Source: an uncultured Elusimicrobia bacterium
GTDB lineage: Bacteria; Elusimicrobiota; Elusimicrobia; UBA1565; UBA9628
Length of the DNA stretch: 64,000 bases
Assembly: GCA_964510095.1 (NCBI GenBank)
Contig: CAZEAE010000001.1
Span: 232,551-296,550, forward strand
Direction: 5' to 3'
The position numbers and the translations under genes were made by a program. Position 1 is the first letter of the stretch. Every line of letters starts with the position of its first letter. The notes beneath the pieces were generated by a model. The model ran no database searches. It saw only the letters and a list, made by a program, of their open reading frames with translations, and was not told the origin of the DNA. Below are positions 1 through 17,200 of the stretch, piece after piece.

Positions 1-529
1 GAGGATATTGCTCCTGGCCGTGATGCTCTCCCCCTTGCCCGCCGCCGCGCAGACCCAGCCCGTATGGGATTCGCTCAAGCAAGGCTGCGGCTTCGACGGG
101 GCGGCTTGCTCGGCTCCGGTCGGGCCCGTGAAGGCCTCCGGCAGCCCGACCGACGACCTCATCCGCGAGACGATCGACGACAGCTCGGGCTTATCCGGAG
201 AGCTCCTTAGGAAGACTCGTGAAGGCGAGGCCCAGCTGCTCCAGCGCACGATCGACGAGTCTCCGACCTTGAAGAAGGCGTTCGAAGACGCTGACCGCAA
301 TCGCACGTGGAACGACTATTACCAGGACCGCAACATGGACGCCGCCGTCGCCTCCTGGGGCAGCAACATGAAGGCCGGCTACCTCAAGTGCACGGCCGCG
401 GCCTACGCCACCTACAAGACGGCGCCCCCCGTGGTCGCCGAGCTCGGCGGCGCCGTGCTGTGGGTCGCCGGAGCCGTCGCCGGCGTGGGCCTGGGCTTGC
501 TGGCCTCCGCTTTCACCGGACATTTCTGA
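1..529 (+). CDS. Hypothetical secreted protein, 5'-truncated by the window edge; its C-terminus has a hydrophobic Gly/Ala-rich segment
   Basis: The ORF runs to the window start in frame, and its first residues look like the end of a signal peptide (LLLAVMLSPLPAAAQ). I recognised no domain. Confidence 0.4.
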   Translation, partial: RILLLAVMLSPLPAAAQTQPVWDSLKQGCGFDGAACSAPVGPVKASGSPTDDLIRETIDDSSGLSGELLRKTREGEAQLLQRTIDESPTLKKAFEDADRNRTWNDYYQDRNMDAAVASWGSNMKAGYLKCTAAAYATYKTAPPVVAELGGAVLWVAGAVAGVGLGLLASAFTGHF

Positions 530-548
530 CTTCATAAAGGAGAAAAAC

Positions 549-1091
549 ATGATCATCAAGACGATCGTCGCCGCAAAACCGCTGCCGGCCTTGGCCCTGG
601 CGCTTTTCACCTCCGCGCCGAACCTCTCGGCGCCGATGGCCCCGACCCTGCTGTCGAGCCTCTCGCCGGACATGCCGGCGCTGACGGCCCCGCTCGTCGC
701 CCGGTCTCTCGACGCGGCCCAGATCCCCGACGTGCCGGGACGCGCGGTCTCGGCGGCGGCCGCCGTGCCCGCCTGGTTCGACGCCCGCGGGCTGTCGTTT
801 GAAAGGGTCAACAGAAGGGAGACGGGCTTCGCCTACGCGGTGCTCAGCCGCGGGCGCTATGAGCTGGGGGTCTTCATCGACGCCGACGGCCAGAGCCAGG
901 CGACCTTCACCAAGTTCTCAAGGAACCCCATGGGCACGCCCGAGGGCAGGGAAGAAATCAAGCTCCTGACGCCCGCCTCGCGCCAGGCCGTGGCCGACAT
1001 CCTGCGCCGGGCGCAGGAAGCCTCCCCCGTCACCGGCAAGGAAGAGGCCGCGCTCAACGGCATGCTCGCCGTGCTCGAGGCAAGCCTATGA
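549..1091 (+). CDS. Hypothetical secreted protein. Its C-terminal ~90 aa are paralogous to the C-terminus of the 2787..3818 product
   Basis: A strong RBS (AAGGAG) lies 7 nt upstream. It has an N-terminal signal peptide followed by a Pro/Ala/Leu-rich segment. The shared C-terminal motif is F..F...PMG.P...E...A...IL.RAQ...PV.GK. Confidence 0.55.
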   Translation: MIIKTIVAAKPLPALALALFTSAPNLSAPMAPTLLSSLSPDMPALTAPLVARSLDAAQIPDVPGRAVSAAAAVPAWFDARGLSFERVNRRETGFAYAVLSRGRYELGVFIDADGQSQATFTKFSRNPMGTPEGREEIKLLTPASRQAVADILRRAQEASPVTGKEEAALNGMLAVLEASL

Positions 1092-1606
1092 AAGGAATGA
1101 CCAGCGTCAAATCCATCATCGTTTCCGCATATGTCTTGTCCGCGGCCCCCGCAAGCTTCGCCGCGCAAGGGACGATTATGGCGAACACTCTCGTCGACCG
1201 CCTTCAAGCGACGGCAGATGGCGGGCCGAACGCCGGTCCCAGCCTTTTCGACGGCACCTCCTCGCGGGGAGACGCTTCCACGATGCCGACCGCCGCTCCC
1301 CAGACCATGGCCTATCGCCACGAACTGGGCGCGCCGCGCGCTACCCGCGTCAATCATATGCACAAGCCCGGCGAGAGACCGGACGGCAGGGTTGTCCCCC
1401 GGGGCAGGAGCTCACTTGAGCGCGGATATGCCTGGACGATGCATCCAGCCACGGAGCTGCTCGACTCCGACAATGCCGGTCTCAAGATCGCGGGATTCAT
1501 CCTGGGCGTCGTGTTGGTCATCCCGGCCGTCATACTCGCCGTGTTAAATAACATCGCCAGCAACTCGCGGCTCACCAAAGGCACGTCTTGGCATCGGCAC
1601 GACTGA
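1088..1606 (+). CDS. Hypothetical protein with a signal peptide and a C-terminal transmembrane helix
   Basis: ATGA overlap with the upstream gene; hydrophobic C-terminus GFILGVVLVIPAVILAVL. Confidence 0.45.
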   Translation: MKGMTSVKSIIVSAYVLSAAPASFAAQGTIMANTLVDRLQATADGGPNAGPSLFDGTSSRGDASTMPTAAPQTMAYRHELGAPRATRVNHMHKPGERPDGRVVPRGRSSLERGYAWTMHPATELLDSDNAGLKIAGFILGVVLVIPAVILAVLNNIASNSRLTKGTSWHRHD

Positions 1607-1743
1607 GCCGAACCCCTACCGATGGTTACCAAAAGTTCACCAAATCAGGCCCCTGCGGCGATTTGCGCTTGTAGACCATTCACCGTCGCCGGCGCGGCCC
1701 AAGGACACCTGAGCCGGCACCGTGACGCGGCTATACTAAAAAC

Positions 1744-2244
1744 ATGAGAAACCTACTCCTGATCGTGATGTTCGTCTCGACCTCAGCCGCGGCGCAGGAA
1801 TTCTCCTTCGACGCGGAGGCCATGGGCAAGATCCTCGCCGGGACGCAGGCGCTCAAGGTGAAGCACCAGGGTCGGCCTCTTCCGCCGATGGTGTCTGATT
1901 ACGAAACGCGGCACATCAGCTTCAAGCTGATAAGCAACGGTTCCGGACGGGATGACGGCGGCGTCTACGTCAATAAGGCGATCCAAATCTATCATACAGA
2001 GTCGCTCCTCGCCACGCTTTATCTCAACGACGATCCCCGCGGCTGGGCCGCCGCCAAGAAGCTGCTGCAGGCCTTCGAGGACCGCCGCCGCGACGCCATG
2101 AACCAGAAGCGCCGCCTCGTCATCGACTATGACGCGATCTCTCGCCAGAACAAGGCCGGCGCATGGGCTATGGCTTGGAATCCGAATGAGTGCGAAAACT
2201 TCGACGAAATCATCCGGCTCGGGATCGTGCACGCCGGTCATTAA
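1744..2244 (+). CDS. Hypothetical secreted protein; N-terminal paralog of the 2262..2771 product
   Basis: Signal peptide; the shared N-terminal motif is AAQEF....ILA.TQALK. Confidence 0.5.
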   Translation: MRNLLLIVMFVSTSAAAQEFSFDAEAMGKILAGTQALKVKHQGRPLPPMVSDYETRHISFKLISNGSGRDDGGVYVNKAIQIYHTESLLATLYLNDDPRGWAAAKKLLQAFEDRRRDAMNQKRRLVIDYDAISRQNKAGAWAMAWNPNECENFDEIIRLGIVHAGH

Positions 2245-2261
2245 ACAGGAGACCCATACAC

Positions 2262-2771
2262 ATGAAAAACATGCTGCTCGTCATGATGCTCGTCGCCGCT
2301 CCCGCCGCCGGCCAGGAATTCGCCGCCGAGATGCCCTTCGTGGCCGACATCCTCGCCAAGACTCAGGCCCTCAAGACCCCGCCGGCCGCTTCGGGCCGCT
2401 CAAACATGATGCTCGCGAGTTCCGGCGACAGGCGAGCCGATATCCTCGCCGAGATCGAGACGCTGAAGGTGAAATACCAGAAACATGAGAAGGATACGAC
2501 GCGGTCGGGGATTTACGCGCTCGAGATCAGCCGCTTGTACATGGTCCTCGCAACCACCTACCCTTTGGGCACCGCCGCCACGTCATCGCCGGCGCAAGGG
2601 GCCTCGCTTGTGAGTTTCAGCGACAGGCGCGTCGAGATCCTCGCCGAAATCGAGAGCCTGAAGGAGAAATATCAGAAATACCGGAACGACCCGACGCGGT
2701 CCGGGATTTACGCGATCGAGCTGAGCCGCCTGTACATGGCGCTCGCAAATCACGCGGACAGGCGCATATAA
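2262..2771 (+). CDS. Hypothetical secreted protein with an internal ~48-aa tandem duplication
   Basis: An RBS (AGGAG) lies 11 nt upstream. The repeat DRR.(D/E)ILAEIE.LK.KYQK...D.TRSGIYA.E.SRLYM.LA occurs twice. Confidence 0.5.
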   Translation: MKNMLLVMMLVAAPAAGQEFAAEMPFVADILAKTQALKTPPAASGRSNMMLASSGDRRADILAEIETLKVKYQKHEKDTTRSGIYALEISRLYMVLATTYPLGTAATSSPAQGASLVSFSDRRVEILAEIESLKEKYQKYRNDPTRSGIYAIELSRLYMALANHADRRI

Positions 2772-2786
2772 CACGAGAGCGACCCC

Positions 2787-3818
2787 ATGAAAAAACTACT
2801 TCTCGCCGTGATTTTCACCGCCTCACCTGCCGCCGCCGCTCAGACCACATTGCGCGCGCCCATCTCGGGCCCCAACGTGATCCCCGGCCTCGGAGCCTCC
2901 CTCGGCGGCGCCCGTTCCGCCGCGACGCCGATGCCGACAATGATAGTGCCCACGTTGTCGCCAGGCATGCAGGCGCCGGCGCTATCCGCGCTCGCGCTTA
3001 CGCCAACCCCCGCGCTGGCGGTCGACATCTTCCCCGCGGCCGCCCAGACGACCGAGAGCTCCCCCCTCGGCGTGATAGGCGACGCCTCCGCCGACGAGGC
3101 TCAGAAGACCGCCGCGCTCGACAGGCTCTTCGACAACTCCGCGCCCGCCGTCATGGACCACCATGTCGACGCCGCGGCCCCTACCCTCATGGGCGGCTCC
3201 GCCGGGAAAATAGGGCCATTCCCGGCGACGGAGTACACAAGCCTCAAGGCAGCCATCAAGGCACGCGGCGTCAAAGCGGGGCTTGCGCTGCAGGCAAGTC
3301 GGACCAAAAGAGAAGGACGCTATTGGTTTACCGTCAACATACGGGGCACTAGCGACGATTTCAAGAAAATCGAGGATCTCTTTGAAAAGGATTCCAAGGG
3401 CTGGAGCTATGCGGGGATTCCCACCGACATCCAGCTTCGCGGGACTCCGGTCGACCTTGCGGCGCTCGCTGCGCAACGCCAGAATGAATTCGCGCAGGCG
3501 CCCGCCTGGTTCGACGTCTCCAAGCTGAAGCTCGACGCGGTCATAAAATCCGGAGCCGGCGGGATCGCGGTCCTCCGCTACGGATGGAGAAGCCAGTACG
3601 AGATGACCGTCTTCGCCTTCCCGGGCGGCGAAAGCATTTCGTTCAAGGAATACCCAGCCAGCCCCATGGGCAACCCCAAGCAGTCCTTCGACGCGACGCT
3701 GGAAACGGCGGCGGCGCGAAAGGCGGCGGCGCAGATCCTGCGCGCCGCGCAAGCGCGCAACCCCGTCAGCGGAAAGGACAAGACCACGCTCGATCAGATT
3801 CTTGCTTTTCTCGAGTGA
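2787..3818 (+). CDS. Hypothetical secreted protein; C-terminal domain paralogous to the 549..1091 product
   Basis: Signal peptide, a Pro/Ala/Leu-rich linker, and a conserved C-terminal block (PMGNPKQSFDATLETAAARKAAAQILRAAQARNPVSGKDKTTLDQIL). Confidence 0.55.
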   Translation: MKKLLLAVIFTASPAAAAQTTLRAPISGPNVIPGLGASLGGARSAATPMPTMIVPTLSPGMQAPALSALALTPTPALAVDIFPAAAQTTESSPLGVIGDASADEAQKTAALDRLFDNSAPAVMDHHVDAAAPTLMGGSAGKIGPFPATEYTSLKAAIKARGVKAGLALQASRTKREGRYWFTVNIRGTSDDFKKIEDLFEKDSKGWSYAGIPTDIQLRGTPVDLAALAAQRQNEFAQAPAWFDVSKLKLDAVIKSGAGGIAVLRYGWRSQYEMTVFAFPGGESISFKEYPASPMGNPKQSFDATLETAAARKAAAQILRAAQARNPVSGKDKTTLDQILAFLE

Positions 3819-3904
3819 GCCCGATGTGAAGCGGATGATTCGCGCTGTCTGCGGTCCTTGACACGCCCGACCGGACCGGCTACAGTCATACCGTTCGGTA
3901 TGAA

Positions 3905-4420
3905 ATGATGAAAGAGAAAATGGACCGATTCGAGCTGTCGGTGCAGGAATGGCTGGGCACACCCTGGATACCCAGGCCCGTCAATCTATGCCTGGTGTTC
4001 CAGGTTAATTGCCCGGGTTGTTTCATCCTTTCCCTGCCTCAGCTCGAGCGGCTTCAGCGCGAGTGGGCGCCACGCGGCGTCGGATTCTTCGGCCTGTCCA
4101 CGGCCTTCGAAGACTTCGAGCTCAACGCGCCGGAACACACACACGGGCTTTTCCACAAAAGGAAGGTCGTCGGCGAGACCGCGAAGGCTCTGCTACGGGA
4201 GAACATCGACCCGGCCGCGCTCGAGATCAACTTCCCCGTCGGCATCGACCGGCGTTTACCCGACGGGCGAGGCGAGACCTTCGCCCGCCACAAACTGCCG
4301 GGTACGCCGACCTGGCTGATACTCGATGAAGAGCAACATATATTGACCGGCTGGTTTGGACACGAGGACGACGAGGCCGTAGCCCATCGCCTCGAGAGCT
4401 TGAGCCGCAAAGAAGACTAA
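3905..4420 (+). CDS. Thioredoxin-fold protein with a CPGC motif (redoxin / TlpA-like thiol-disulfide oxidoreductase)
   Basis: A CPGC dithiol motif near the N-terminus, with flanking sequence typical of the AhpC/TSA-redoxin fold. Confidence 0.45.
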   Translation: MMKEKMDRFELSVQEWLGTPWIPRPVNLCLVFQVNCPGCFILSLPQLERLQREWAPRGVGFFGLSTAFEDFELNAPEHTHGLFHKRKVVGETAKALLRENIDPAALEINFPVGIDRRLPDGRGETFARHKLPGTPTWLILDEEQHILTGWFGHEDDEAVAHRLESLSRKED

Positions 4421-5284: not shown

Positions 5285-5495
5285 GCACCGCCAGCACAGC
5301 CTTCCGTGCGGCATCCTGATCCACACGCGCTGATTACTCGCGGTGAACTAAAACCGCGCCATTACCGCTTCATCCCGAATAGACCCATTGCCGCCCGGCT
5401 GGTTCCCCTCCGCCTCAGGCCCGCACGCCCGCACGTCACTATACTATGGGGGACCGTGCTCGATGAGATACTCGCTTTCCTACAAGGAGCTTAAC

Positions 5496-6812
5496 ATGAA
5501 GAAAACGATTCCCTTAGCCGTCCTCATCGCATGCGCCGCCGAGCTGGCGGTGCCCCGCAGCCTCCAAGCGCAGGAGCTAGACACTGAGATGAAGGCCGCC
5601 CGTGATCTCGTCGGCGACGCCAGGCCCCGGCTGATGTCGCATAAGAACGGCATCCTCCAGCAGATCAACGACGCGCTGGCCCATCTGACGGCGGAGTCCA
5701 AGCCCTCGGTGGCGATGGTGCGCACGGCGAAGGGCTCGGGGACGGGGTTCGTAGTGGACGCCTCAGGCCTGATGCTGACCAACGCGCACGTGGTGCTGGA
5801 AGCCGGCCTCAACGCGAAGGTCAAGGTGGTCTTCGCAGGAGGCAGCCAATACGTGGGCACGGTGGTAGCGCTGGGCTCGATGGGGACCGAGCAGGACCCG
5901 TTCTCGGGACGCGATCTGGCCATCATACGCCTGCCGGCCAAATCTGGAGGCTGGCCGGCCTTGGCCCTGGGCGACGCGGCCAAGCTGCGCGAAGGCGACA
6001 TGGTGGCGATGATGGGCTATCCATTGGGGCTTCCCTTCACCTTGACGCAGGGCGTGGTCAGCGGCCTGGGCAGACGGGAAGGGGGCATCAAAGGCTTTCC
6101 CGTGAAATTCGTGCAGAGCGACGCGGCGATCAACCCGGGGAACTCCGGGGGGCCGCTGGTGTCGATGGATGGGCTGGTGGTGGGGGTCAATACGCTGTCC
6201 TTCTCGCCCAACGGAGGCTCCGACGGCATCGGCTTCTCGGTAGGAGCCGACGCGGTGAAGGGCTTCTTGGCGGAGTACAAGAGACGGGGCGCCTTCAGCG
6301 ACGGCTTACGAGCCGCGGGCATCGTCCGGAGCCAAGGCGCCTTGATGAAGCCCGCGTCCTGCCCGGCGCAAGAGACGCTGTCCCGGCCCTGGGTGGAGCA
6401 TGCGGGACCCGTTCCACAGGCGGCGCTTGACGCTCACCTGGGCGCGAAGCTTGACGGGGCGGCGCCGGTGCTGCTGCCGGTCAACACGGTATCGTGGTGG
6501 ATCGGAGCGTCTCGCCGCGGGCGGGGCGACGCCCCAGACTGCTTCGTCCTGGGCAGCGCGGGCCTTTACGTCAACGGGCCGGAGGACGCCCCCGCGGTGG
6601 ATTTCGTGAAGGTGGTGGGCTCGGGCGCCGAAGCCGGCTTGCGTTCGTCCTTGATCGAATTGCGGTGGTATGATGAAAAGGACGGCCGCAAGCACCGCTG
6701 GTTCGACACGGCCCTGGCCCGGCGCCTGGGGTGGGACGTCGACGGCCGCGGCGCGCCGACGGACATGCCCCGACCGATCCCGCTGCCCGCCGCGAGCAAC
6801 GCGCTGCTATAG
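5496..6812 (+). CDS. Secreted trypsin-like (S1 family, HtrA/DegP-like catalytic domain) serine protease with a ~170-aa C-terminal extension
   Basis: An RBS (AAGGAG) lies 7 nt upstream and the protein has a signal peptide. The catalytic motifs are TNAHVV (His), DLAIIRL (Asp) and GNSGGPL (Ser). Confidence 0.75.
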   Translation: MKKTIPLAVLIACAAELAVPRSLQAQELDTEMKAARDLVGDARPRLMSHKNGILQQINDALAHLTAESKPSVAMVRTAKGSGTGFVVDASGLMLTNAHVVLEAGLNAKVKVVFAGGSQYVGTVVALGSMGTEQDPFSGRDLAIIRLPAKSGGWPALALGDAAKLREGDMVAMMGYPLGLPFTLTQGVVSGLGRREGGIKGFPVKFVQSDAAINPGNSGGPLVSMDGLVVGVNTLSFSPNGGSDGIGFSVGADAVKGFLAEYKRRGAFSDGLRAAGIVRSQGALMKPASCPAQETLSRPWVEHAGPVPQAALDAHLGAKLDGAAPVLLPVNTVSWWIGASRRGRGDAPDCFVLGSAGLYVNGPEDAPAVDFVKVVGSGAEAGLRSSLIELRWYDEKDGRKHRWFDTALARRLGWDVDGRGAPTDMPRPIPLPAASNALL

Positions 6813-6818
6813 CCGACG

Positions 6819-8255
6819 CTATCGCTTGATCTTGCGCTCGGTCTGCTCGATGAGCTGGCGCGTCCTCAAAGACGGGCTCACCTCGAAGGCTTTCTTGAAG
6901 AATTTAAGCGCGTAAGGCGCGTCGCCCTCGGCCAAAAGGCACTGGCCCAGGCCGACGTAAGCGTCGGCCACGTTCAGGTCGCTGAGCCCGAGTGAGCCCG
7001 CCAGCTTCAGGCCTTCCGTGTAGAAGCCTTTCGCCTTGCGCACGTCGCGCTCGGCAAGCGCGATGGTTCCCTGGCGCTCGTAATACAGCACGCGCCGGCG
7101 GTCTTCGGGCGCCAGCATCGCCTCGGCCAGCTCCAGCTCCGCGCGCGCGTCCGCGAACTGCTTCGCGTCGATCAGGCGCCGGGCCTTGGCGAAATGGCCC
7201 TCGGCGGTCTCTTCACCCTTGACCGGCTTGGCCTCCTTGGGCACATAAGCCTCCGTCCTCGTCCCCCAATCCACCTTCGGGGGAGGCTCGCGCCGAGGCT
7301 CGACTTTTTCCGGGATCGGCGCGTCTTCCTCGGGCGAAGGCTCATGGCCATCGTCGTGGCCGCCCCAGCGGAACGTGACGCTGGCGCGATGCGTCAGCCC
7401 CAGGTCCCCGTAGGGAGCGAAGGCGTAGTCGATCGAGAAAGACCGCCAGCCCCAGCCCACGCCGCCGGTGATGCCGATATCGGTGTCATTGGCCCCATTG
7501 AAGCCCAGACGCATCGTCATGGGCTTGAGCAGGACGACTTCCACGCCCGCATGCGCCTTCAAGCGGTCGGTGCGCCCCTTGGTCAGGTCGACGGCCACCG
7601 TCGCGCTGTCGAAGGCGTACGCCGCGCCGACCCGGCCGCTCAACGGCAGCTTCTCCTTGTCCCGGATGAAGCGCACGTCAGGCCCCACGTTCTGGATCGC
7701 CGCGCCCAGGGTGAAGCGCGGCGCCGGCGGCACCGTAAGCATCACGCCCGCGTCGCCGGCGAAGGCCGAGGCTTTCACGTTGTCGTTGGTCTCCTGGATG
7801 AACTTCCCGGCCACGCCCAGGCTGAGCGCTCCGAAGAACGTATGGCCATAACCCGCCGCCACGGCCAGGTCGTCGACACGGAACTTGCCCAGCGCGCCGT
7901 CCTTGGAGGCGTAGGTCGTCCGGGGGATGTTGCCGAAGCTCAGGTAGTTGAGGTTGAGCCCCAGGCCCTGCCTCAACGCCAGCCCCATGTACTCGTGGTT
8001 GATGCCCTCCACGTAGGAGTTATGCATCATGGTGACCTCATGCCGGGTGACCCGGCCCAAGCCGGCCGGGTTGTAGAGCAGCGCGTTGGCGTCCGTCGCC
8101 AAGGCCGTGTAGGCGCCGCCCAAGCCGACCGCCCGGGCGTTGCCGTCCAGGAACAGGAAGTCGAAGGGCTCGGCCCCGGCCGAGGCCGCGCCGTGAGCCC
8201 AGCCGGCGGAGCCGGCTGCCCACAGACCGAGCCAAAGGGCCAGTGTCTTCTTCAT
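6819..8255 (-). CDS. Outer-membrane beta-barrel of the FadL/TodX/PorV superfamily, fused to a C-terminal TPR domain
   Basis: A signal peptide is followed by the motif GLGGAYTALATDANALLYNPAGLG, which matches the FadL/PorV N-terminal signature G.G.A...A.DA....NPA.L. The barrel ends in an aromatic residue (FRW). The last ~140 aa hold TPR-like repeats. The ATG overlaps the stop codon of the giant gene (ATGA). Confidence 0.65.
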   Translation of the reverse strand: MKKTLALWLGLWAAGSAGWAHGAASAGAEPFDFLFLDGNARAVGLGGAYTALATDANALLYNPAGLGRVTRHEVTMMHNSYVEGINHEYMGLALRQGLGLNLNYLSFGNIPRTTYASKDGALGKFRVDDLAVAAGYGHTFFGALSLGVAGKFIQETNDNVKASAFAGDAGVMLTVPPAPRFTLGAAIQNVGPDVRFIRDKEKLPLSGRVGAAYAFDSATVAVDLTKGRTDRLKAHAGVEVVLLKPMTMRLGFNGANDTDIGITGGVGWGWRSFSIDYAFAPYGDLGLTHRASVTFRWGGHDDGHEPSPEEDAPIPEKVEPRREPPPKVDWGTRTEAYVPKEAKPVKGEETAEGHFAKARRLIDAKQFADARAELELAEAMLAPEDRRRVLYYERQGTIALAERDVRKAKGFYTEGLKLAGSLGLSDLNVADAYVGLGQCLLAEGDAPYALKFFKKAFEVSPSLRTRQLIEQTERKIKR

Positions 8256-11200
8256 CGGATGATCGAAAGCCTCTTGATGATGCTCTTCTGCCCGGGCGAG
8301 GCGATCACGGCGAAATAGCCGCCCGTGGCCAATTCCCGCCCATCCTCGTTGCGCGCGTTCCACTGCAGCCGGCCGCCGCTGTTGGCCGAGCTGAACTGGG
8401 CGGCCAGCTTCCCGCTGACCGTGAAGACCTTGATCGTGACGGCCGCCGGCAGGTTGTCGAAGACGATGCCCGAGTTCACGTTGCCCGGCGAGAAGGGACG
8501 GCCCTCATCGGGGTTGACGCCGTTGGGCTTGAAGGGCACCGGATAGACGCGCACGGTGTCCAGGTTGGCGGCGCCGGCCAGCGGGAAGGCGGCGAAGAAG
8601 CTGAAGTGGCGCGTCGCCCCGTAGACCGTGTGGTTGACCAGGTCGATCGTCGTCGTCAGGTCGGCCGTCCACTGGTTGGTCACGGTATCGAAGCTGTAGA
8701 GCTTAAGATCCTGAGCGCGCAGCGAGGTGCCGTCCAAGATGCCGTCGTCGTTGGCGTCGAGGTAGGTGAAGGTCAGGGTGGCCGAATTGCCGCCGGAGAG
8801 CAGCGTCTGGCCGTTGCCCAAGGTGATGCTCATCGAGATGCCGACGTCCTGCGTGCCCTCCGGGGCCGCGGCCGGCAGGACCGGGGAGTTGACGACCGAG
8901 ACCGTCGTCGAGGAGCCGCTCAAAGAGCCCGCCGGCAGGTCGATCTTCGTGACCAAGGAGCCGACGCCGGCTCCCGTGATCGCTTGCGGCGCACCGTTGT
9001 TGAGCACCTCCTCGCGCGTGATCAAGCTTCCCACCAGGCGCTCGCGCACGTCCCACCCCGCGGGGTCGACGACGACGGTCACCACCCCCGGCGTCGTATC
9101 GGAGGAATCAGAGATGTCGGCAGCCACCGCGCGCAGGTCATAGCTGGTGGCCGTCAAGCCGGTGACGTCCCAGTGCAGGAACCAAGGGGCCGACAGGTCG
9201 CCGTTGGTCTGCGTCGGCCCGGCCGGCACGACCGGGAGCCAGGCCGTGTCGCTGGATGCCTTGTATTGGAAAAGCACGCTCTTGGTCTGCGCATCCGTGC
9301 CGCTGAGCAGCTGCGCCGACACCGTGACGCGGTCGCCGGCGATGCGCTTTCCTGAGACGGGGGACTTGATCTGGGCCCGCACCGCCGACACCGACGCCGT
9401 CGATGATGCCGAGGCGTAGACGCCGGAGGTTTCTTCCACGCCGCAACGGTGCGCCGCCCGCAATGCGAAGAGATAGGTGGGGCTAGAGACCAGCACGCCG
9501 GTCGTATATGAGGTCTCAGTGGAGGTGAAGACCGCCGCCGGCGTGACGAAGTCGACCGCGCCCGTGCCCGCGTCGTAATACAGCTTATAGGCGGTGATGC
9601 CTTCCGTAGGTGAAGCCGTCCATGACAGGGAGATGCGGTTGCCGGTCAGCGCGTTGGCCGCCAAGCCGCTGGGCGCCGAAGGCGTCGAGGCCAGGGTCAC
9701 GAAGGAGACCGTGCCGTCGAAAGCGGTGGCCACCGCGTCTCCATTGCGGTTGCGCACGCGCAGGTAATACGTCGTGCAGCCCAAGAGGCCCGTGTCGGCG
9801 TAGGCGACCACCGAGCTCAAAGACACCAAGGAGAAGGCGGCATTGTCGGTGGAATGCTGGACCTCGGCCAGCGTGTCCGCGGGGTTGGTGTTGAGGCTCC
9901 AGGAGATCGTCGCGCTGGTGCCCTGGACCAGGCTGATGACGCTGCCCGTAGGCGGCGCGGCTAGGGTATAAGCCGTCGCGGCCGCAGACAGCGGCCCTTG
10001 CCCGCTGACGTTGATGCCCGCGACGACCAAGCCGTAGGCGGTGTTGGTGGCCAGGCCCAGGTGCGAGAACGCCGCCGCCGCCGGATTGCCGATGATCGAC
10101 GCCGTGTTCGAAGCGGGGAAGACGTAGTAGCCGACGGCATCGGCCGCCGCGCCCCAAGTCCAAGAGATCGACGAGACGCCCAGGGCCGCGCCGACGGGCA
10201 CGCCCGGCTGGCCGGGGGCCGCCGGCTCCGTCCGGGTGCTGACGGTCGCGTCGAAGGTCGTGACGCCGCCGTTGTGGCCGAGCGTGCGCGCTTTGAAGTA
10301 ATAGGTGGTCGACGGCGACAGCCCCGCAGCCTCGGCGTCGGTCACGGAGACCAGCGTCTTGACGGGCGACGCGAACGCGGCGGAGACGTCGCGCCAGAGC
10401 TCGTAGACCGTGCCGGGGTCGGGGTTGCCCTGCGGCAGCCAGTCGAGCGAGACGGTCGAAGACGTCACGCTCAGGACCTCCGTCGCCGACGGAGAGAAGG
10501 CGGGGCTAGCCGCCGAGCCCAGATCCTTCACGGTGCTGGCGTTGGCCCCGCTGCGGGCCCGGACGCGGAAATAATAAGTCGTGTTGGCCAGCAGGTCGGC
10601 TCCGGCTCCGCCCGCGCCGAAGACCACTGAGAGGTTCAGCGTCGACGAGCTGAAGTTCACGGAGGCGAAAGCGTCGCTGGAAAGGTCGGCCTCGTAGCCG
10701 GTGCCCGGCGGGTTGCCGCCATCGGTCCACGAGACGGTGACGCTGGCAAAATCGACGGCGACCAGGCTGGGCGCGCCGGCGCCGGGCTCGGCGAGCAGCG
10801 TCGTCGTGGAAGGCAGCGTCGTCAATGATGTGAGCCGGCCGCCGTGGCCCAGGGCCCGGACCTGGAAGTAGTAGGTGGTGTTGGCGCTCAGGCCGGCGAA
10901 GGCCGCCGAGACGCCGTAGGTGCCGCTCGAGGCGTTCAAGGTCGAGAACTCGTCGGTGGAGACCCGCGCCTCGTAAAGCGTGCCCGAAGCGTTGCCATTG
11001 GCAGTCCAGTTCGCGGTGACCGCCGCCGGGCCGACGAAGGTCGGCGCCAAGGCCGCGGGCTCGGCCGGCAAGGTGGCAGTGGCGACGACGGCCACGAACG
11101 CCGTGGGCATCGAGGCGGCGTTGAAGGCCTGCACCCGCAAATAGTAAGTGGCGTTGGACTGCAGGGCGAAGAAGGTGGCTGAAGTCAGGAGCGTATTGCT

Positions 11201-14200
11201 GGAGGCGTTGACCGTGGTGAAGGCGTCGGTCGATATCTGGGCCAGATAGGGCGTCGCGGCCGGATTACCGCCCGCGCCCCAGGACAGCGCGGCCGAGGAC
11301 AACTCCACCGCGCTCAAGAAAGGCGCCGCCGGCGTGACGGCCAGGGTCGGCGCGGCGGCGGCTTGCGCGAACGGGCTCGACCCGCCCCAGCCCAGCGCCT
11401 GGACGTGCAGGTAATAGGTCGTGTTAGGGGCCAACGCCTGGAACGTGGCGGAAAGGGAGAGCGTCTGGCTGGAGAGATTCAGGGTCGTGAAGCCGTCCGT
11501 AGACAGCTGGGCCAAGTAGACCGTGCCGGCGGGGTTGCCGTCGGCCGACCAATCCAGCGTCATCGAAGACAGCGCTATCGCGCTCAGCGCCGGCGCGGCC
11601 GGCGAAGCGGGCAAGGTGAAGGCCGGCGCCGCCGCGATGAAGACGGTAGGAAGCTCGTTGCTGTTGAGGGCGCGCACCCGCAGGTAATAGGTGGTGTTGG
11701 GCACCAGCGCCTGGAAGGTGGCCGAGACGTTGAGCGTCTGGCTGGTGATGTTGAGGGTCGTGAAGGCGTCGGTGGACAGCTGGGCTTGATAGCGCGTGCC
11801 CGCCGGATCGCCCCCGGAGCCCCAGGTCAGGCTCATCGACGAGACGCTGGGGCCGGCGGCGGGCGCCGCCGGAGGAGCGGCCAGCGTGGACGTCGAGCCC
11901 AGCGCTACGTTGGCGCTGACATTGGAAGGCCCCACCGTGCGGACCTGGAAGAAATACGTGGTGTTGGGCGACAGCGCGCTCCCGGCGCCTCCGGAGCCGA
12001 AGAGGGTAGAGAGGCTCAGCGTCAGCGAGCTGAAGTTCACCGTGGCGAAGGCGTCGGTGGAGAGCTCGGCGGCGTAGAAGGCTCCCGGGCCGTTGCCGCC
12101 GCTGGTCCACTGCACGGCGGCGCTGGCGGTCTCGACGGCCAAGAACGAACCCGCGGTCAAGCCCGGCGGCAGGAGCAGCGTGGTGGTCGAAGGCAGCGTA
12201 GCGAAGCCCGTGACCTGGCCGCCATGCCCAAAAGCGCGCACCCGGACGTAGTAGGTCGTATTGGATAGCAGCCCTGCGAAGCCGGCCGCGGCATTGAAAG
12301 TCGCGCTCGACTCATTGAGCGTGGCGAAGGTGTCGGTGGAAAGCTCGGCCTCGTAGCGGGTCGTCAGCGGCGCGTTGCCGTTGGCCGACCAGTTCGCCTG
12401 GAAGGCCGCCGCGGCCACGGCGGAGGGCTGGGCTGAGACCGGCAGCGCCGGCGGCGTCGCGGTGGCCGGCCCCACGGCGAAGCCGGTGGCGGCAAACGCA
12501 TGAGAAAGCGCCTGCACGCGCAGGTAATAAGTGGCGTTGGACAGCAGGCCGAAGAAGGTGGCCGAGGTCAGCAGGGTAGAGCTCGAAGCGCTGAGCGTGG
12601 AGAAGTCGTCGGTGGAGAGCTGTACCGCAAAGCGCGTGCCCGCCGGGTTGCCGTTGGCGCTCCAAGAGAGCGCGGCCGAGGACAGCTCGACGGCCGTCAG
12701 TGAAGCCCCGGCCGGCGTCGCCGCCAGCGTCGGCGCGGCGGCGGCGGAAGCAAACGGGCTCAGCGCGCCGGCCCAGCCGATGGCTTGGACGCGCAGATAA
12801 TAAGTGGTGTTGGGCACCAGGGCCTGGAACGTGGCGGAGAGGTTCAGCGTCTGGCTGGAGGTATTGAGGGTCGTGAAGGCGTCGGTAGACAGCTGCGCCA
12901 GATACACCGTCCCGGCCGGATCGGCGTTGGCGAGCCAATCGACGGTCATCGAGGACAGGTTGATCGCCGCTAAAGAGGGGCTCGGCGGCGCCGGCAGCGT
13001 GACGGTCGTCATCGCCGCCGCGTAGCTCGAAGGCACGCCGTTGTTGTTGACGGCCCGCGCGCGCAGATAGTAAGTCGTGTTGGGGACCAGCGCCTGGAAC
13101 GTGGCCGACAAGCTCAGCGTCTGGCTGGAGGCATTGAGCGTGACGAAGACGTCGGTGGAAAGCTCCGCCTGATAGACCGTGCCGGCGCCGTTGCCGGCCG
13201 AGGTCCAGGTCAGGCTCATCGACGAGACGCTCGGCAGCGCCGCGGAGGCGGCGGGGACCGCCGCCAGCGTCGACGTCGACCCCAAGGGGATGTCGGCGCT
13301 GCTGTTGCCTCCGCCCGTGGCGCGCACCTGGAATTGATACGTGGTATTGGGAGACAGCGCCGGGCCGGCCCCGCCCGCGCCGTAGAGGACCGTGAGGTTG
13401 AGCGTCGACGAGCTGAAGTTCAGCGTGGCGAAGCCGTCGGTGGACACCTGGGCCACGTAGACCGTCGTAGGCCCGTTGCCGCCGCTGTTCCACTGCACCG
13501 CGACGCTGGACTGCTCGACGAGGAAGAAGGAACTCCCCGCCGGCACCGGCGGCAGCAGCAGGGTCATGGTCGCGGGCAGGACCGTGAAGGCGGAAAGCCG
13601 GCCGTCATGGCCCGAGGCGCGGACCCGGACGTAGTAGGTCGTGTTGGACAACAGCCCGCCGAAGCCGGCCGAGACGTTGAGCGTCGCGCTCGACTCCCGG
13701 AGCGTGGAGAAGGCGTCGGTGGATATCTGGGCCTCGTAGAGGGTCGTCAGCGGCGCGTTGCCGTTGGGCGACCAGTCGGCCTGCAAGGAGTTGGCCGTGA
13801 TCGCCGAGGGCGGCGCCGACGCCGGTTCGGCGGCCGAGGTCGCCGTGGCCGCCGCGACGGCGAAGGCCGTCTGCGCCCCCGCATGCGACCAGGCGGCCAC
13901 CCGCAAGTAATGCGTGGCGTTGGAGAGCAGCCCGAAGAAGGTCGCCGAGGTCAAGAGCGTCCGGCTGGAGGAGTTGACCGTGACGAAGGCGTCGGTGGAG
14001 TCTTGCGCCAGATATTCGGTGCCCGCGGGATTGCCGCCGGCCGCCCAGCTCAGCGCGGCGGAAGTCACCCAGACGCCGCTGACCGCAGGCGAGACCGGCA
14101 GGTCAGGGAGCGTCACGGAAGGACTCGCCGCCGCGAACCCGCCCGGCCCGTAATGACCGGAGGAGCGCACGCGAAGATAGTAGGTCGTGTTGGGCGTCAG

Positions 14201-17200
14201 CGCGGTGAAAGTCGCCGACTGGCTGAGGGTCGCGCTCGTCAAGTTGACGGTGGCAAAATCGTCGGTGGAGACCTGCGCGTCGTAAGGCGTGCCGACGTCG
14301 TTGGAAGGCGAGCTCCAGGTCAGGACGGCGGAGGACAGGTTGACGGCGGTCGACGTCGAGGCCGGGTCGGCCGTCAAGGTGAAGCTCGAAGAGGGCGTCA
14401 GGAAGGCCGTCGCCGTGCCGCCGTGGCCCAGCGCCCGGACCCGAAGGGAATAGTCCTTGTTGGAGACCAAGCCGAAGAACGTCGCGCCGGCGTTGAGCGT
14501 CCAGCTGGAGGCGTTGAGCGTGAGGAAGGCGTCGGTCGACTGCTCCACGGCATAGAGCGTGCCCTCCGGGTTGCCGTTGCGGCCCCAAGAAAGGCCGTGC
14601 GACGACAAGCCGACCGAGAAGACCGCCGCGACCGGCGGGTGAGCCCAGGTGGCGGTGGCGCCAGACGCCGCGTAGTTATAGACGGCGCCATAGAGGGTGC
14701 CGACGCGCAAAGTGTAGGTCGTGTTGGGGAGCAGGCTTTGCGGGCTGAGCTGCGTCGACGATCCGTTGGTCGTGACCGAGGAGACGATGCCCGAGGAAAA
14801 ATCAGCGACGGAGGAGACCTCGGCGGAATAGCCGTCGGAGGCCGCCAACGCCCAGCTCAGCGTCACGCTCGAGCCGGAGACGCCGAGGAGCACCGGCGCG
14901 GCCGTAGGCGCCGACTTGGAGGCTTCCAGCGTCTGGCCGTAAGAGCCAAGATTGGCCCGCGCCCCGTTAGGCGACGCCTCGAGGCCGGCGGCGGCGGCCG
15001 GATCGGCGGCGTCGATGGTGAGCGCGGTGACGCCGTCGACGACGAATCCGGCCGCGGCGGGGTCCCAGCGTCCGCGCTGAGAGCGGGGATGGAAATCCTC
15101 GACGCCGCCGGAGGCGTCGTTCCAGAGCGGCTGGGCCGCCAGCGAGTTGAGGTCCCGGCCGGTGCCCGAGCGCCAGGCGGCGAGGAAGTCATAGCTCGAC
15201 GCTCCCCAGGTCCCGGAGTTGAGGACGGCGGAGCTGAAGAAGTCGTTATAATCGGAGACGAAGCCGCTCTGGCTGTCGGCGGAGACCTCGATGGTCGCCG
15301 AAGCTCCCGAGACGCTGAAGGAGCTCAGGAAGACGTTGCCCTTGACTTGGACGCCCGTCGAAGCGGAACGGACGCTCAACAGCACGGCATTGTTGAAGTT
15401 CGCCCCCGTGGCGTGAAGGTCGTTGAAGAGCAGCGAGCTGTTGGTGGTGGCCCACAAGGAGACCGCCTCATGGCTGCCCGAGGTGATCTTGCCGGGCTCG
15501 TTGAAGCGGTTGTGGTCGATCACCAGACCCGAGGAGCCTAGCGCATAGAGGCCGTAAGCGGTGACGCCGGGGATGGCCAAGGCGGTGCGGTAATAGACGC
15601 CGTTATCCTGGATGGTGGCGCCCGTGATCAAGCCGTTCAAGTGGATGCCGTAGGTGTCCAGCGACGTCGACAAGGTGGGCAGGACCGTGTTCGAGGTGAT
15701 CCAGACCTGGGCGCCGGCGCCCTGCGCCGCGACCCGGATGCCGTATTGGGCGCCGGTCCGGATCGTGTTGGTCGAGAGGATCAGGCGCCCGGCGCCCGCC
15801 TCCAGCGCGATCCCGGCGCCCTGGGCGCCGCCTGAGACGGTGTTCGAAGACATCGACAGGTTCACGCTGCCGGAGCGAAGCCAGAGGCCGCTGCCCAGCG
15901 CCGAGGTCGCCGCCAGGAAGTTCGACGAGACGACGGTGCCCGTGGCGCCGGCCACGATCACGGCGGTGGAGCCCTCGATGTAGCAGGAGGACACCGTGTT
16001 GGAGGATCCCTCGAGGAACTGAAGGCCGGCGGTGATCGTGCTCAGCGTGACCAGGTTGCCGATGGAGCCGCCGGTGATGACGGGAGCCGAGAGCAGGCTG
16101 CGGCTGACCGTGTTATAACTGCCCCCCGTCAGACGCAGGACGCTGATCGTGCTGAGCGTGACGGTGTTGTAATCGGCGCCTCCGCTCAACACCAGGCCGT
16201 AGCCCCCCGGGCTGGGGATCGAGAGCCCCGTCAACGTGTTGAACGCGCCGTTGACGTCGATCGAGGAGTTGCCGGTGATGACGCTTTGCGACAGCGTGTT
16301 GTAGTTGCCCCCGATGAAAGCGCCGCCGCTGACGAAGCCGGCCGCGTAGCTCTGCGTGATGATGTTCGAATAGGAACCCACCGAGATGGAGAGGCCTCCG
16401 TTTCCCGTCATCGTACTGAGGCTGATGACGTTGTCGTGGGCGCCGTTCTTAAGCTGGGCGCCGCCGAAGTTGCCGTAGAAGCGGCCGTTGGTGATGGTGG
16501 AGGAGGACGCTCCATCGAGGACCAGCGCGGCGTCGCCGGCCCCAACGACGGCCGACGTCGCATACGAGACGACGCTCCACGGCCCGGTGATCACCAAGCC
16601 GTGGCCGGCCAGGACCGTGATGCTGGAACGCTCTATCGAGCTGCCGCTCGACACCCGGACGCCGGCGCTCCAGATCCCGGCCCGGCCGTCGACGCTGACG
16701 CTGGAAAGGGCGACGTAGGCCGAAGAAGACCAGACGCCGTAGGCCACGGTGTTGGTCGTGATGATGGAGATCTGCTGGAGGGTCACCGAGTCGTTGAACA
16801 CGAGGAAGGCGGCAGTCGAGCCCGCCGGGGGGTTGAAGACCGGAGCGGAGCTGACGAAGGTCGGGTCGGCCATGATCCTGAGCCGATAGCCGTTGTTGGA
16901 AAAACCCTGGATGGTGACCTGCTCGCTATAGGTCAGCGCGTCGCGGATGACGAGGCAGGCGTCGCCGGTCAGGCCGGGCGGCATGGCGTTAAGCGCCCCT
17001 TGCAGTGTGACATGGTCCATGCTGCCGTCCTGCTTGACGTTGAAGCCGGTCAGGCAGCCCGGCGGCAGGCTCGACGCGGTATGGGTGGCCGCGACGAAGG
17101 AATAGTTGGCGCTGCCGTTCCAGTTGAGCGCGCCCAGGCGCAGGTAGTAAGTGGCGTTGCTCAGGCCCGTCAGGCTCAGCGTGCTCAAGGCCACGTTGGA

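What the first reader, a model, noticed from the sequence alone, without database searches (positions are those of the whole stretch)
6819..8255. FadL/PorV-family outer-membrane barrel fused to a TPR domain and translationally coupled to the giant CTD protein
The N-terminal barrel carries the FadL/OMPP1/PorV signature (GLGGAYTALATDANALLYNPAGLG) and ends in an aromatic residue. The C-terminal ~140 aa form TPR repeats. The ATG overlaps the TGA of the 5,930-aa gene (ATGA at 8252..8255). In type IX secretion, PorV-family barrels shuttle CTD-bearing cargo. A PorV-like barrel hard-wired to one cargo gene, with a periplasmic or surface TPR tail, is an unusual arrangement. It may be a dedicated receptor or anchor for the giant protein.
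Basis: partly seen in the sequence, partly recalled or inferred. Interest (0 to 1): 0.65.

Follow-up and report, generated by a model that had tools for sequence, protein, structure and literature searches.

The report
Cargo-specific PorV-like outer-membrane dock, Elusimicrobia
A giant surface protein and the outer-membrane barrel encoded right after it form a conserved two-gene module in Elusimicrobia that looks like the cargo-tail and carrier-barrel pair of type IX secretion, in a phylum where that secretion system has not been reported.

Summary
Window 6819..8255 (-) encodes a 478-aa protein: signal peptide, FadL-type plug with the quoted motif, a 14-strand barrel ending in W297, a disordered Pro/Glu linker and a 7-helix TPR tail. 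Its ATG overlaps the TGA of the 5,930-aa gene (ATGA, 8252..8255). The barrel passes NCBIfam's PorV/PorQ family cut-off but fails the PorV and PorQ equivalog cut-offs. Its best fold match is F. johnsoniae PorV, ahead of FadL. The organism is an Elusimicrobiota MAG from groundwater. The arrangement is not a one-off. In 1.3 Mb from 81 related loci plus the window, 75 of 78 ORFs carrying the same conserved ~130-aa C-terminal domain are directly followed by such a barrel, and 45 loci have a 4-base overlap. That domain's best solved-structure matches are PorZ and PorU, the two T9SS proteins that keep their CTDs. Cargo bodies vary (peptidase, chitinase, adhesin-like giants). Barrel tails also vary (TPR, OmpA-like, SH3, none). 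Best reading: a cognate dock or anchor for one cargo, with a periplasmic tether. The closest published analogue is the type B CTD / PorP-SprF / PorE operon of Bacteroidota. I could not test whether Elusimicrobia have a T9SS core.

The parts
8252..26044 (-). Cargo gene: 5,930-aa secreted giant protein. It has a Sec signal peptide (MSTSSYKSLARAFLLALMVSPAAQA/AD), repeated N-terminal modules, right-handed beta-helix regions, a long array of fn3 domains and a C-terminal sorting/docking domain.
   Evidence: ORF and translation. Pfam fn3 (10 or more stretches) and Beta_helix. GC3 0.91. Internal repeat offsets of about 461 and 799 aa.
8255..8674 (-). C-terminal domain (CTD) of the cargo, last ~105-140 aa. 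It is a T9SS-like / FlgD-Ig-like domain of the PorZ/PorU flavour, with a family-specific ~14-residue conserved insert after the YPxPxxP motif.
   Evidence: Matches the CTD part of the NCBIfam PorZ model (E 8e-9). TIGR04183 scores 17 bits, below its cut-off of 23. Family profile against the PDB: PorZ 5m11 res 658-758, E 4e-12; PorU 6za2, E 7e-5. 63 of 67 upstream ORFs in related loci share it, with E down to 1e-59.
8252..8255 (-). ATGA stop/start overlap between the cargo and barrel genes (translational coupling).
   Evidence: Sequence. The same 4-base overlap occurs in 45 of 81 related loci, 42 ATGA and 3 GTGA.
8190..8255 (-). Signal peptide of the barrel protein (aa 1-22, MKKTLALWLGLWAAGSAGWAHG).
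   Evidence: Sequence. The hydrophobic N-terminus aligns across homologues.
8043..8177 (-). N-terminal plug/hatch segment (aa 27-71) with the GLGGAYTALATDANALLYNPAGLG motif, which includes the FadL-type NPA. It is the most conserved segment of the protein.
   Evidence: AF2 model, pLDDT above 94. Conservation 0.78. Invariant residues listed.
7365..8042 (-). 14-strand outer-membrane beta-barrel (aa 72-297) of the PorV/PorQ family. The last strand ends ...VTFRW.
   Evidence: NF033709, 146 bits against cut-off 90. 14 strands in the AF2 model, mean pLDDT 88. Foldseek PorV 8gl6_F E 8e-14 and 6h3i_F 1.8e-10, against FadL/TodX at about 1e-7. Profile hit to PorV 6h3i_F, E 1e-20.
7206..7364 (-). Disordered Pro/Glu/Lys-rich linker (aa 298-350), variable in length and sequence between homologues.
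   Evidence: pLDDT below 50. Conservation 0.26. Composition: 10 P and 10 E in 50 aa.
6822..7205 (-). C-terminal TPR domain (aa 351-478, seven helices), inferred to be periplasmic.
   Evidence: Pfam TPR_2 27.5 bits against cut-off 27, plus TPR_12. Helices H351-477 with pLDDT above 88. Hits to consensus TPR structures. In paralogues the tail is replaced by an OmpA-like or SH3_3 domain, or is absent.
26072..26100 (-). Sigma-70-like promoter candidate (TTGACC-17-TACACT) in the 102-nt gap upstream of the cargo gene. It suggests the two genes form their own transcription unit.
   Evidence: 1 found against 0.0 expected in shuffles. This is a consensus match only.

Best explanation
The two genes form a cognate 'cargo plus dock' module. 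Both proteins cross the inner membrane by Sec, and both have signal peptides. The 478-aa protein is inserted in the outer membrane as a plugged 14-strand PorV/PorQ-type barrel. Its unusually conserved extracellular loops bind the conserved C-terminal domain of the giant protein and hold it on the cell surface. This is the way PorQ holds PorZ and PorV holds PorU in Porphyromonas, whose CTDs are retained rather than cleaved. The ATGA overlap couples translation so that barrel and cargo are made together. The flexible Pro/Glu linker lets the TPR tail reach into the periplasm, where it ties the barrel, and through it the giant protein, to a periplasmic partner or the cell wall. In Bacteroidota a separate protein, PorE, plays that role in PorP-PorE-cargo complexes. 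Shown: the anatomy, the family assignment, the conserved one-to-one gene pairing, the CTD resemblance to PorZ/PorU, and the modular tails. Inferred: physical CTD-barrel binding, retention of the CTD, the periplasmic location and tether role of the TPR. Unknown: which machine moves the cargo across the outer membrane.
For: Family and fold: NF033709 passes. PorV is the best PDB fold and profile match. The model is a confident 14-strand barrel with plug. Pairing: 67 of 85 loci have an upstream ORF of at least 300 aa within 60 nt, and most of the rest are cut by contig ends. 75 of 78 CTD ORFs in 1.30 Mb are directly followed by a barrel. 45 loci have 4-base overlaps. No other gene family recurs next to the pair. 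CTD: the C-terminal ~105 aa average 47% identity across the phylum, while cargo bodies differ in length (about 500 to 5,930 aa) and content, including S41 peptidase, GH18, BNR, beta-propeller and beta-helix/fn3. The best PDB matches are the retained CTDs of PorZ and PorU (retention stated in PMC10947112). CTD and barrel identities co-vary (r = 0.87, Mantel 0 of 2000). Loops inferred to be extracellular are as conserved as the strands (0.65 against 0.63) and more conserved than the periplasmic turns (0.42). CTDs bind PorV extracellular loops in solved complexes (PMC10994853). Tether: paralogous barrels carry an OmpA-like peptidoglycan-binding domain or SH3_3 in place of the TPR. TPR-type barrels go with the largest cargoes, median 1,759 aa against 961 aa. 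Precedent for cargo-barrel-wall-anchor complexes: PMC9143113, PMC12618676.
Against: Co-variation of adjacent genes is expected from co-inheritance alone. The window CTD scores below the TIGR04183 cut-off (17 against 23 bits), and the barrel fails both the PorV and PorQ equivalog cut-offs. Loop orientation was inferred from strand parity, not measured on coordinates, and the loops are short compared with PorV's. The outer-membrane translocation step is unexplained: T9SS is reported only in Bacteroidota/FCB (PMC4793230, PMC12421860), and no T9SS core gene was seen among the window ORFs scanned or recurring in the related loci. A dock without a known door is therefore an incomplete mechanism.
Confidence: 0.55

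Rival explanations
1. Transient, cargo-specific shuttle within a canonical T9SS encoded elsewhere in the genome. The barrel sits at the lateral gate of a SprA/Sov translocon, extracts its own cargo by the CTD and carries it to a PorU-type sortase, which cleaves the CTD.
For: PorV is the best structural match, including the substrate-bound translocon complex 8gl6_F. Cognate shuttles encoded directly downstream of their substrates are demonstrated for type B CTDs in F. johnsoniae (PMC12618676). The cargo repertoire (peptidase, chitinase, adhesin-like giants) resembles T9SS secretomes.
Against: T9SS has been reported only in Bacteroidota/FCB (PMC4793230: none outside Bacteroidetes; PMC12421860). 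Of four library papers holding both 'Elusimicrobia' and 'type IX secretion', the three I opened hold the T9SS phrase only in their reference lists. No T9SS core gene appears in the window ORFs scanned or as a recurrent neighbour. The CTD resembles the two uncleaved CTDs (PorZ, PorU) most closely. It is far more conserved than the type A CTD surface that contacts the translocon, which is described as poorly conserved (PMC10994853). A periplasmic tether (TPR, OmpA or SH3 tail) fits a static anchor better than a mobile shuttle.
Confidence: 0.2
2. Self-contained export pair. The barrel, probably together with BAM, is itself the route by which its cognate cargo crosses the outer membrane, in the manner of two-partner secretion or a split autotransporter, as well as its final anchor. 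This would be a secretion route independent of the T9SS core.
For: Strict one-to-one pairing and translational coupling, with no third conserved gene. Cassettes occur in a phylum without reported T9SS and also in MAGs labelled Omnitrophota, Nitrospirota, Hydrogenedentes and Armatimonadota. Each cargo has its own barrel rather than sharing a general carrier.
Against: The barrel lumen is occupied by a highly conserved plug. A 14-strand FadL/PorV-type barrel has no precedent as a protein-conducting channel, and there is no POTRA or other known translocator feature. In solved complexes the CTD binds the outside loops of PorV, not its lumen (PMC10994853). Elusimicrobia loci often carry T2SS/type IV pilus genes that could supply another route.
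Confidence: 0.15
3. An ordinary FadL-type transporter for hydrophobic small molecules that merely happens to lie next to the giant gene.
For: The FadL-superfamily fold and the NPA-containing hatch motif. A few distant paralogues give weak Toluene_X hits.
Against: The window protein has no Toluene_X hit at E <= 1, and PorV/PorQ models win clearly. The link to a CTD-bearing ORF is conserved in 75 of 78 cases across very different cargoes, which a chance neighbour cannot explain.
Confidence: 0.03

Closest known systems
PorQ-PorZ and PorV-PorU pairs of the Porphyromonas gingivalis T9SS attachment complex
   Same: A PorV/PorQ-family 14-strand barrel paired with a surface protein whose Ig-like CTD is retained and used for anchorage (PMC10947112). 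Here the barrel's best equivalog score is PorQ (95.7 bits). The CTD family's best PDB hits are PorZ (E 4e-12) and PorU (E 7e-5).
   Different: The barrel fails the PorQ and PorV equivalog cut-offs. As far as I recall (not checked here), the P. gingivalis partner genes are not adjacent or overlapping. Here every cargo has its own barrel. The barrel carries a periplasmic TPR, OmpA or SH3 tail. The CTD has a conserved ~14-residue insert. The host phylum is Elusimicrobiota, where no T9SS has been reported.
Type B CTD substrate / PorP-SprF-like shuttle / PorE-like operons of Flavobacterium johnsoniae and P. gingivalis (e.g. SprB-SprF, Fjoh_3952-3951-3950, PG1035-PorP-PorE)
   Same: The gene for the cognate barrel lies directly downstream of the cargo gene. 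The barrel anchors its own cargo. A peptidoglycan-binding TPR/OmpA-type component ties static complexes to the wall (PMC12618676, PMC9143113, PMC12773672).
   Different: A different barrel family (PorV/PorQ, not PorP/SprF; no PorP/SprF hit). A different CTD class (type A/PorZ-like: TIGR04183 in 58 of 60 members, type B TIGR04131 in 1 of 60). [quoted passage not shown] The tether is fused to the barrel instead of being a separate PorE protein.
Treponema pallidum FadL-like OMPs with a periplasmic alpha-helical, TPR-bearing C-terminal extension (three of five FadL-like orthologues)
   Same: A 14-strand FadL-superfamily barrel followed by a short linker and a helical TPR-containing tail assigned to the periplasm (PMC8407342). 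The window protein passes Pfam UPF0164 (25.5 against 21.4 bits). From my own knowledge, not checked here, UPF0164 is the T. pallidum family.
   Different: The Treponema proteins are discussed as nutrient importers, and no CTD-cargo partner is described. Homology of the tails was not tested here. That paper reports finding no other FadL-family members with such a tail, so the Elusimicrobia family extends the architecture.
FadL / TodX long-chain fatty acid and aromatic hydrocarbon channels
   Same: The same superfamily fold: a 14-strand barrel with an N-terminal hatch and an NPA motif.
   Different: Weaker matches (Foldseek E about 1e-7, TM 0.4-0.5, rmsd 8-11 A, against PorV E 8e-14). No Pfam Toluene_X hit for the window protein. 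Obligate genetic link to a protein cargo.

Membership tests
PorV/PorQ family (NCBIfam NF033709) | HMM score at or above the curated cut-off (90 bits) | tested here: met
   146.1 bits, residues 31-296 on profile 4-325.
PorV/PorQ family | 14-strand FadL-like barrel with an N-terminal plug, structurally closest to PorV | tested here: met
   AF2 model with pLDDT 88 and 14 strands. Top Foldseek PDB hits are PorV 8gl6_F (E 8e-14, TMt 0.60) and 6h3i_F. Profile hit to 6h3i_F at E 1e-20.
PorV proper (NF033710 equivalog) | HMM score at or above 250 bits | tested here: not met
   51.3 bits.
PorQ proper (NF033711 equivalog) | HMM score at or above 220 bits | tested here: not met
   95.7 bits. This is the best of the equivalogs but well below the cut-off.
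PorV2 (NF052325) | HMM score at or above 325 bits | tested here: not met
   44.1 bits.
PorP/SprF family | Match to PorP/SprF profiles | tested here: not met
   No PorP/SprF family among the Pfam or NCBIfam hits at E <= 1.
FadL/OMPP1/TodX (Pfam PF03349 Toluene_X) | Pfam score at or above the gathering cut-off (29.7 bits) | tested here: not met
   No hit at E <= 1 for the window protein. Only weak sub-threshold hits in distant paralogues.
FadL superfamily (fold level) | Hatch with an NPA motif inside a 14-strand barrel | tested here: met
   YNPAG at residues 61-65, with Y61, N62 and P63 invariant. FadL/TodX structures are hits 3-19.
Pfam UPF0164 (PF03687) | Score at or above 21.4 bits | tested here: met
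   25.5 bits, residues 31-97 only. Most homologues also carry it.
TPR domain | Pfam TPR model at or above its cut-off, and helical repeat structure | tested here: met
   TPR_2 27.5 against 27 bits. Seven helices at 351-477 with high pLDDT. Hits to consensus TPR structures.
T9SS type A sorting domain (TIGR04183 / PF18962) on the cargo | HMM score at or above the cut-off (23 bits) | tested here: inconclusive
   The window CTD scores 16-17 bits, below the cut-off. 58 of 60 family members match at E <= 0.01 (best 7e-9), and Pfam Por_Secre_tail matches 35 of 60.
PorZ/PorU-type retained CTD | Sequence similarity to the CTDs of PorZ and PorU | tested here: met
   Profile against PDB: 5m11 (PorZ) res 658-758 at E 4e-12; 6za2 (PorU) at E 7e-5. 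The CTD part of the NCBIfam PorZ model matches 60 of 60 members.
PorZ/PorU-type retained CTD | The CTD is not cleaved after export | not testable with these tools
   Needs proteomics of the mature protein.
T9SS type B CTD (TIGR04131) | Match to the type B model | tested here: not met
   1 of 60 members, at E 0.0077.
Type IX secretion system (as a system) | Genome encodes the core: SprA/Sov, PorK/L/M/N (GldK-N), PorU, PorT, PorW/SprE | not testable with these tools
   Only 64 kb of the genome is held. No core component was found among the window ORFs scanned, and none recurs in 1.3 Mb of related loci. The literature reports T9SS only in Bacteroidota/FCB (PMC4793230, PMC12421860).
Cognate cargo/shuttle operon (as for type B CTD-PorP/SprF) | The barrel gene lies directly downstream of its CTD cargo gene, conserved across genomes | tested here: met
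   75 of 78 CTD ORFs are followed by a barrel. 45 loci have 4-base overlaps.

The most novel reading that the evidence does not exclude
Elusimicrobia, and perhaps other non-FCB lineages, lack the T9SS core altogether. On that reading the CTD plus private PorV-family barrel pair is a self-sufficient or BAM-assisted outer-membrane export-and-anchoring system. It would be either the ancestral minimal module from which the Bacteroidota T9SS carrier/attachment branch evolved, or a new secretion route that reuses the same two parts.
Probability: 0.2. Interest if true: 0.85.

Novelty: new variant of a known kind. Interest (0 to 1): 0.6.

Why it matters
In current accounts, T9SS carrier barrels (PorV, PorQ, PorP/SprF) and CTD signals are features of Bacteroidota/FCB. 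Type A-like CTDs there share one general carrier, PorV. Here a large family uses the same two parts in a different way. The family has 495 clusters at 50% identity with E <= 1e-30. Every cargo has its own translationally coupled PorV/PorQ-type barrel, the barrel carries its own periplasmic tether, and the host phylum has no reported T9SS. If the core machinery is truly absent, this separates the 'recognise and anchor' half of type IX secretion from the 'translocate' half. That would bear on how the system evolved and on how Elusimicrobia display their giant surface proteins and hydrolases. It also gives a simple two-gene module that could be tested for surface display in heterologous hosts. 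It offers a functional lead for FadL-like barrels with TPR tails elsewhere, such as the Treponema pallidum outer-membrane proteins that are vaccine candidates.

Tried and rejected
1. Co-folding the CTD with its barrel as a linker-fused chain on a paired 28-row alignment.

2. Foldseek against AFDB50, to find the same architecture in UniProt including Treponema. The library was not available.

3. Literature search for Elusimicrobia together with T9SS, PorV or PorQ. Only four papers hold both 'Elusimicrobia' and 'type IX secretion'. In the three I opened, the T9SS phrase occurs only in reference lists. 'PorV2', 'type IX sorting', 'PorV-like' and 'PorQ-like' gave nothing relevant.

4. Search for a third conserved gene next to the cassette, such as a sortase, translocon or motor. 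Only generic histidine kinases and response regulators, plus lineage-specific synteny, turned up. The TolQ/TolR/TolA-like genes beside the giant gene in the window are not conserved neighbours elsewhere.

5. FadL transporter reading. Rejected on HMM, fold ranking and conserved cargo linkage.

6. The longer 514-aa reading of the ORF (GTG at 8363). Rejected because homologues start at the MKK signal peptide and the extension overlaps the cargo's CTD coding region.

7. Genome-wide test for T9SS core genes. Not possible: one genome scan per session, no seed sequences, and no whole-genome access.
Full report
**Observation.** The minus strand of the window holds a 5,930-aa ORF (8252..26044). A second ORF follows it, and its homologue-supported ATG (8255..8253) overlaps the TGA of the first, giving ATGA at 8252..8255. 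The second protein is 478 aa. The quoted motif GLGGAYTALATDANALLYNPAGLG is residues 44-67. An in-frame GTG further upstream would add 36 residues. However, the N-termini of 24 and 99 homologues align on the MKK... signal peptide. Both genes have the strong GC3 bias of real genes in this 65% G+C DNA.

**What the downstream protein is.** NCBIfam places residues 31-296 in the PorV/PorQ family (NF033709, 146 bits, cut-off 90). The equivalog models fail: PorQ scores 95.7 of 220, PorV 51.3 of 250 and PorV2 44 of 325. Pfam gives TPR_2 (27.5 against 27) and UPF0164 (25.5 against 21.4). Its PorV model is below cut-off, and FadL/Toluene_X and PorP/SprF give no hit at all. An AlphaFold2 model built on 99 homologues is confident (mean pLDDT 88). 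It shows:
- a plug segment at residues 27-71;
- 14 strands at 72-297, ending ...VTFRW;
- a disordered Pro/Glu-rich linker at about 300-350;
- seven helices at 351-477.

Foldseek against the PDB ranks F. johnsoniae PorV first, taken from T9SS translocon complexes (8gl6_F at E 8e-14, 6h3i_F at E 1.8e-10, TM about 0.6 on the target). FadL and TodX follow at about 1e-7, with TM 0.4-0.5. A family profile also hits PorV 6h3i_F at E 1e-20. PorV/PorQ is the right family, and FadL is only the superfamily.

**What the upstream protein is.** It has a Sec-type signal peptide, beta-helix regions and a long fn3 array. Its last ~100 residues match the CTD portion of the PorZ model (E 8e-8 to 8e-9). The match to the type A sorting-domain model TIGR04183 is weak (16-17 bits, cut-off 23).

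**Organism.** The window is part of a 257-kb contig from a Hainich groundwater metagenome. Its ClpB is 100% identical to a protein that NCBI labels Elusimicrobiota bacterium. Every named hit at 72-81% identity is also from Elusimicrobia.

**The pair is a conserved module.** The barrel-plus-TPR protein has 336 word-indexed homologues. Most are full length, and all named ones are from Elusimicrobia, where NCBI calls them 'PorV/PorQ family protein'. An exhaustive search finds 495 50%-identity cluster representatives at E <= 1e-30 and 5,564 at E <= 1e-10. Genomic contexts of homologues at 45-54% identity show the same layout: a large fn3-containing protein ending 4 bases inside the barrel gene. 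A scan of species-representative genomes returned 80 loci. Nearly all are from Elusimicrobia, and several genomes contributed more than one locus. A few loci come from MAGs labelled Omnitrophota, Nitrospirota, Hydrogenedentes and Armatimonadota.

The measured numbers across these loci are:
- 67 of 85 loci have an upstream same-strand ORF of at least 300 aa ending within 60 nt. Most of the exceptions are cut by contig ends.
- 42 of 81 non-duplicate loci have an ATGA overlap and 3 have a GTGA overlap.
- The last ~130 residues of 63 of those 67 upstream ORFs match the window CTD, with E down to 1e-59. The C-terminal ~105 aa average 47% identity.

The bodies of these proteins are unrelated in size and content. 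They include an S41 peptidase, a GH18 chitinase with a TIG domain, a BNR sialidase-like protein, a beta-propeller with fn3, and a ubiquitin-like domain with a NosD-type beta-helix.

An HMM census of all 1.30 Mb held (the 81 loci plus the window) found 78 CTD-bearing ORFs, of which 75 are directly followed by a barrel. Of 87 barrels, 12 lack an upstream CTD. Five of those are at contig starts, and the other seven are in the most divergent loci. No third gene family recurs beside the pair.

**What the CTD resembles.** Every member of the CTD alignment matches the CTD part of the PorZ model. In addition:
- 58 of 60 match TIGR04183 (best E 7e-9);
- 26 match PorU;
- 51 match Pfam FlgD_ig;
- 1 matches the type B model.

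Against the PDB, the family profile's best hits are PorZ (5m11, residues 658-758, E 4e-12) and PorU (6za2, E 7e-5). A conserved ~14-residue insert follows the YPNPxxP motif and is absent from PorZ. According to PMC10947112, PorU and PorZ are exactly the CTD proteins whose CTDs are not cleaved, and PorZ is held on the surface by the PorQ barrel. The barrel's best equivalog score is also PorQ.

**Evidence bearing on mechanism.**
- CTD and barrel identities co-vary across 58 pairs (r = 0.87; no Mantel permutation out of 2000 reaches it). Co-inheritance predicts this too, so it is compatible with cognate recognition but does not prove it.
- By strand parity, the loops at 112-123, 191-205, 254-261 and 282-286 face outward. 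They are as conserved as the strands (0.65 against 0.63) and more conserved than the periplasmic turns (0.42). That is the reverse of the usual pattern in outer-membrane proteins and fits a conserved protein-binding face. In solved translocon complexes, CTDs bind the extracellular loops of PorV (PMC10994853).
- The C-terminal tail is modular. It is a TPR in 26 of 81 loci and absent in 38, and 17 have other tails. Those other tails include an OmpA-like peptidoglycan-binding domain (L023, L030), bacterial SH3 (L063, L069) and a different TPR (L077). TPR-type barrels accompany the largest cargoes: complete upstream ORFs have a median of 1,759 aa, against 961 aa for barrel-only paralogues, and the window's cargo is 5,930 aa.
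- Swapping a TPR for cell-wall-binding domains at the periplasmic end of an even-stranded barrel points to a tether. This parallels PorE (TPR-WD40-CRD-OmpA_C; PMC12773672) in PorP-PorE-cargo complexes (PMC9143113, PMC12618676).
- A sigma-70-like promoter lies in the 102-nt gap upstream of the giant gene, so the pair is probably its own transcription unit.

**Comparison with what is known.** The logic of a cargo gene followed directly by its cognate barrel gene, sometimes with a wall anchor, is established for type B CTDs with PorP/SprF-like shuttles in F. johnsoniae and P. gingivalis (PMC12618676, PMC9143113). The same literature states that type A CTDs all use the single PorV shuttle. The present module applies the private-barrel logic to a type A/PorZ-like CTD and a PorV/PorQ-family barrel. 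It fuses the tether to the barrel, and it occurs in Elusimicrobiota. The barrel-plus-periplasmic-TPR architecture has been described for three Treponema pallidum FadL-like proteins, whose authors found no other examples (PMC8407342).

T9SS itself is reported as restricted to Bacteroidetes or the FCB superphylum (PMC4793230: 60 of 97 Bacteroidetes genomes and none elsewhere; PMC12421860; PMC11205867). In the library, four papers hold both 'Elusimicrobia' and 'type IX secretion'. In the three I opened, the T9SS phrase occurs only in reference lists. None of the 25 papers listed in the PorV/PorQ/T9SS search mentions Elusimicrobia.

**What remains open.** I could not test whether this genome, or any Elusimicrobia genome, encodes SprA/Sov, PorK/L/M/N or PorU. 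No such gene was found among the window ORFs scanned, and none recurs near the cassettes, but that covers only a small part of any genome. The route across the outer membrane is therefore unknown. The CTD-barrel complex could not be modelled.

**Verdict.** The finding is not an oddity of one gene. It is one example of a large, conserved and, as far as the library shows, undescribed module. I class it as a new variant of a known kind. Its importance depends on whether the T9SS core is present in these genomes.

Noticed in passing
window 26147..27911 (-), and 27916..29582 (-): A TolQ/ExbB-like gene (27276..27911), a TolR-like gene (26884..27276) and a TonB_C/TolA-like gene (26147..26887) lie directly upstream of the giant gene. 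Two HEAT-repeat proteins precede them. This is probably the Tol system. It is not a conserved neighbour of the cassette in other loci.
   Followed up: partly
window 5388..6812 (+): A convergent trypsin-like (S1, Trypsin_2) secreted protease ends 6 nt from the barrel's stop codon. It has a C-terminal extension of about 190 aa with no family match. The same neighbour appears in other assemblies of this organism (L087, L088) but not in related loci.
   Followed up: partly
window 8..4420 (+): A run of seven co-oriented ORFs with coding-type GC3. The six of them that were scanned have no Pfam or NCBIfam match.
   Followed up: no
window 29579..32868 (-): A Memo-AMMECR1 fusion protein (29579..31051), a GAF-domain protein (31211..31747) and a radical SAM protein (31744..32868) lie together. 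This is the conserved 'AmmeMemoRadiSam' association of unknown function, here with Memo and AMMECR1 fused.
   Followed up: no
window 57524..59110 (+): A tyrosine recombinase fused to an excisionase-type HTH domain, next to several small unannotated ORFs. This may be the edge of an integrated element.
   Followed up: no
L026:1206-3761 (+): One CTD cargo has a eukaryote-type ubiquitin-family domain (PF00240, E 2e-23) immediately after its signal peptide, followed by a NosD-like beta-helix. A secreted, surface-displayed ubiquitin-like domain in an Elusimicrobia bacterium is unusual.
   Followed up: no
L083 (barrels at 641-1747 and 7575-8705); L074 (barrel 9865-10840, CTD ORF 10818-12312): Some loci carry more than one barrel. 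L083 has a second barrel gene upstream of its cassette. In L074 the order is reversed, with the barrel first and the CTD protein second, overlapping.
   Followed up: partly
L030, L063, L075/L080, L085: Related barrel genes also occur in MAGs labelled Omnitrophota, Nitrospirota, Hydrogenedentes and Armatimonadota. L030, L075 and L085 have the upstream CTD cargo, while L063 and L080 do not have it directly upstream. This may reflect real spread outside Elusimicrobia or mis-binning; it was not resolved.
   Followed up: no
window 8252..26044 (-), protein-internal: The giant protein is built from long internal repeats (8-mer repeat offsets of about 461, 799 and 328-371 aa). It is 48% Ala/Ser/Thr/Gly with only 15 Cys. 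At 5,930 aa it is much larger than the complete cargoes seen in related loci (1,587-2,828 aa for TPR-type cassettes).
   Followed up: partly
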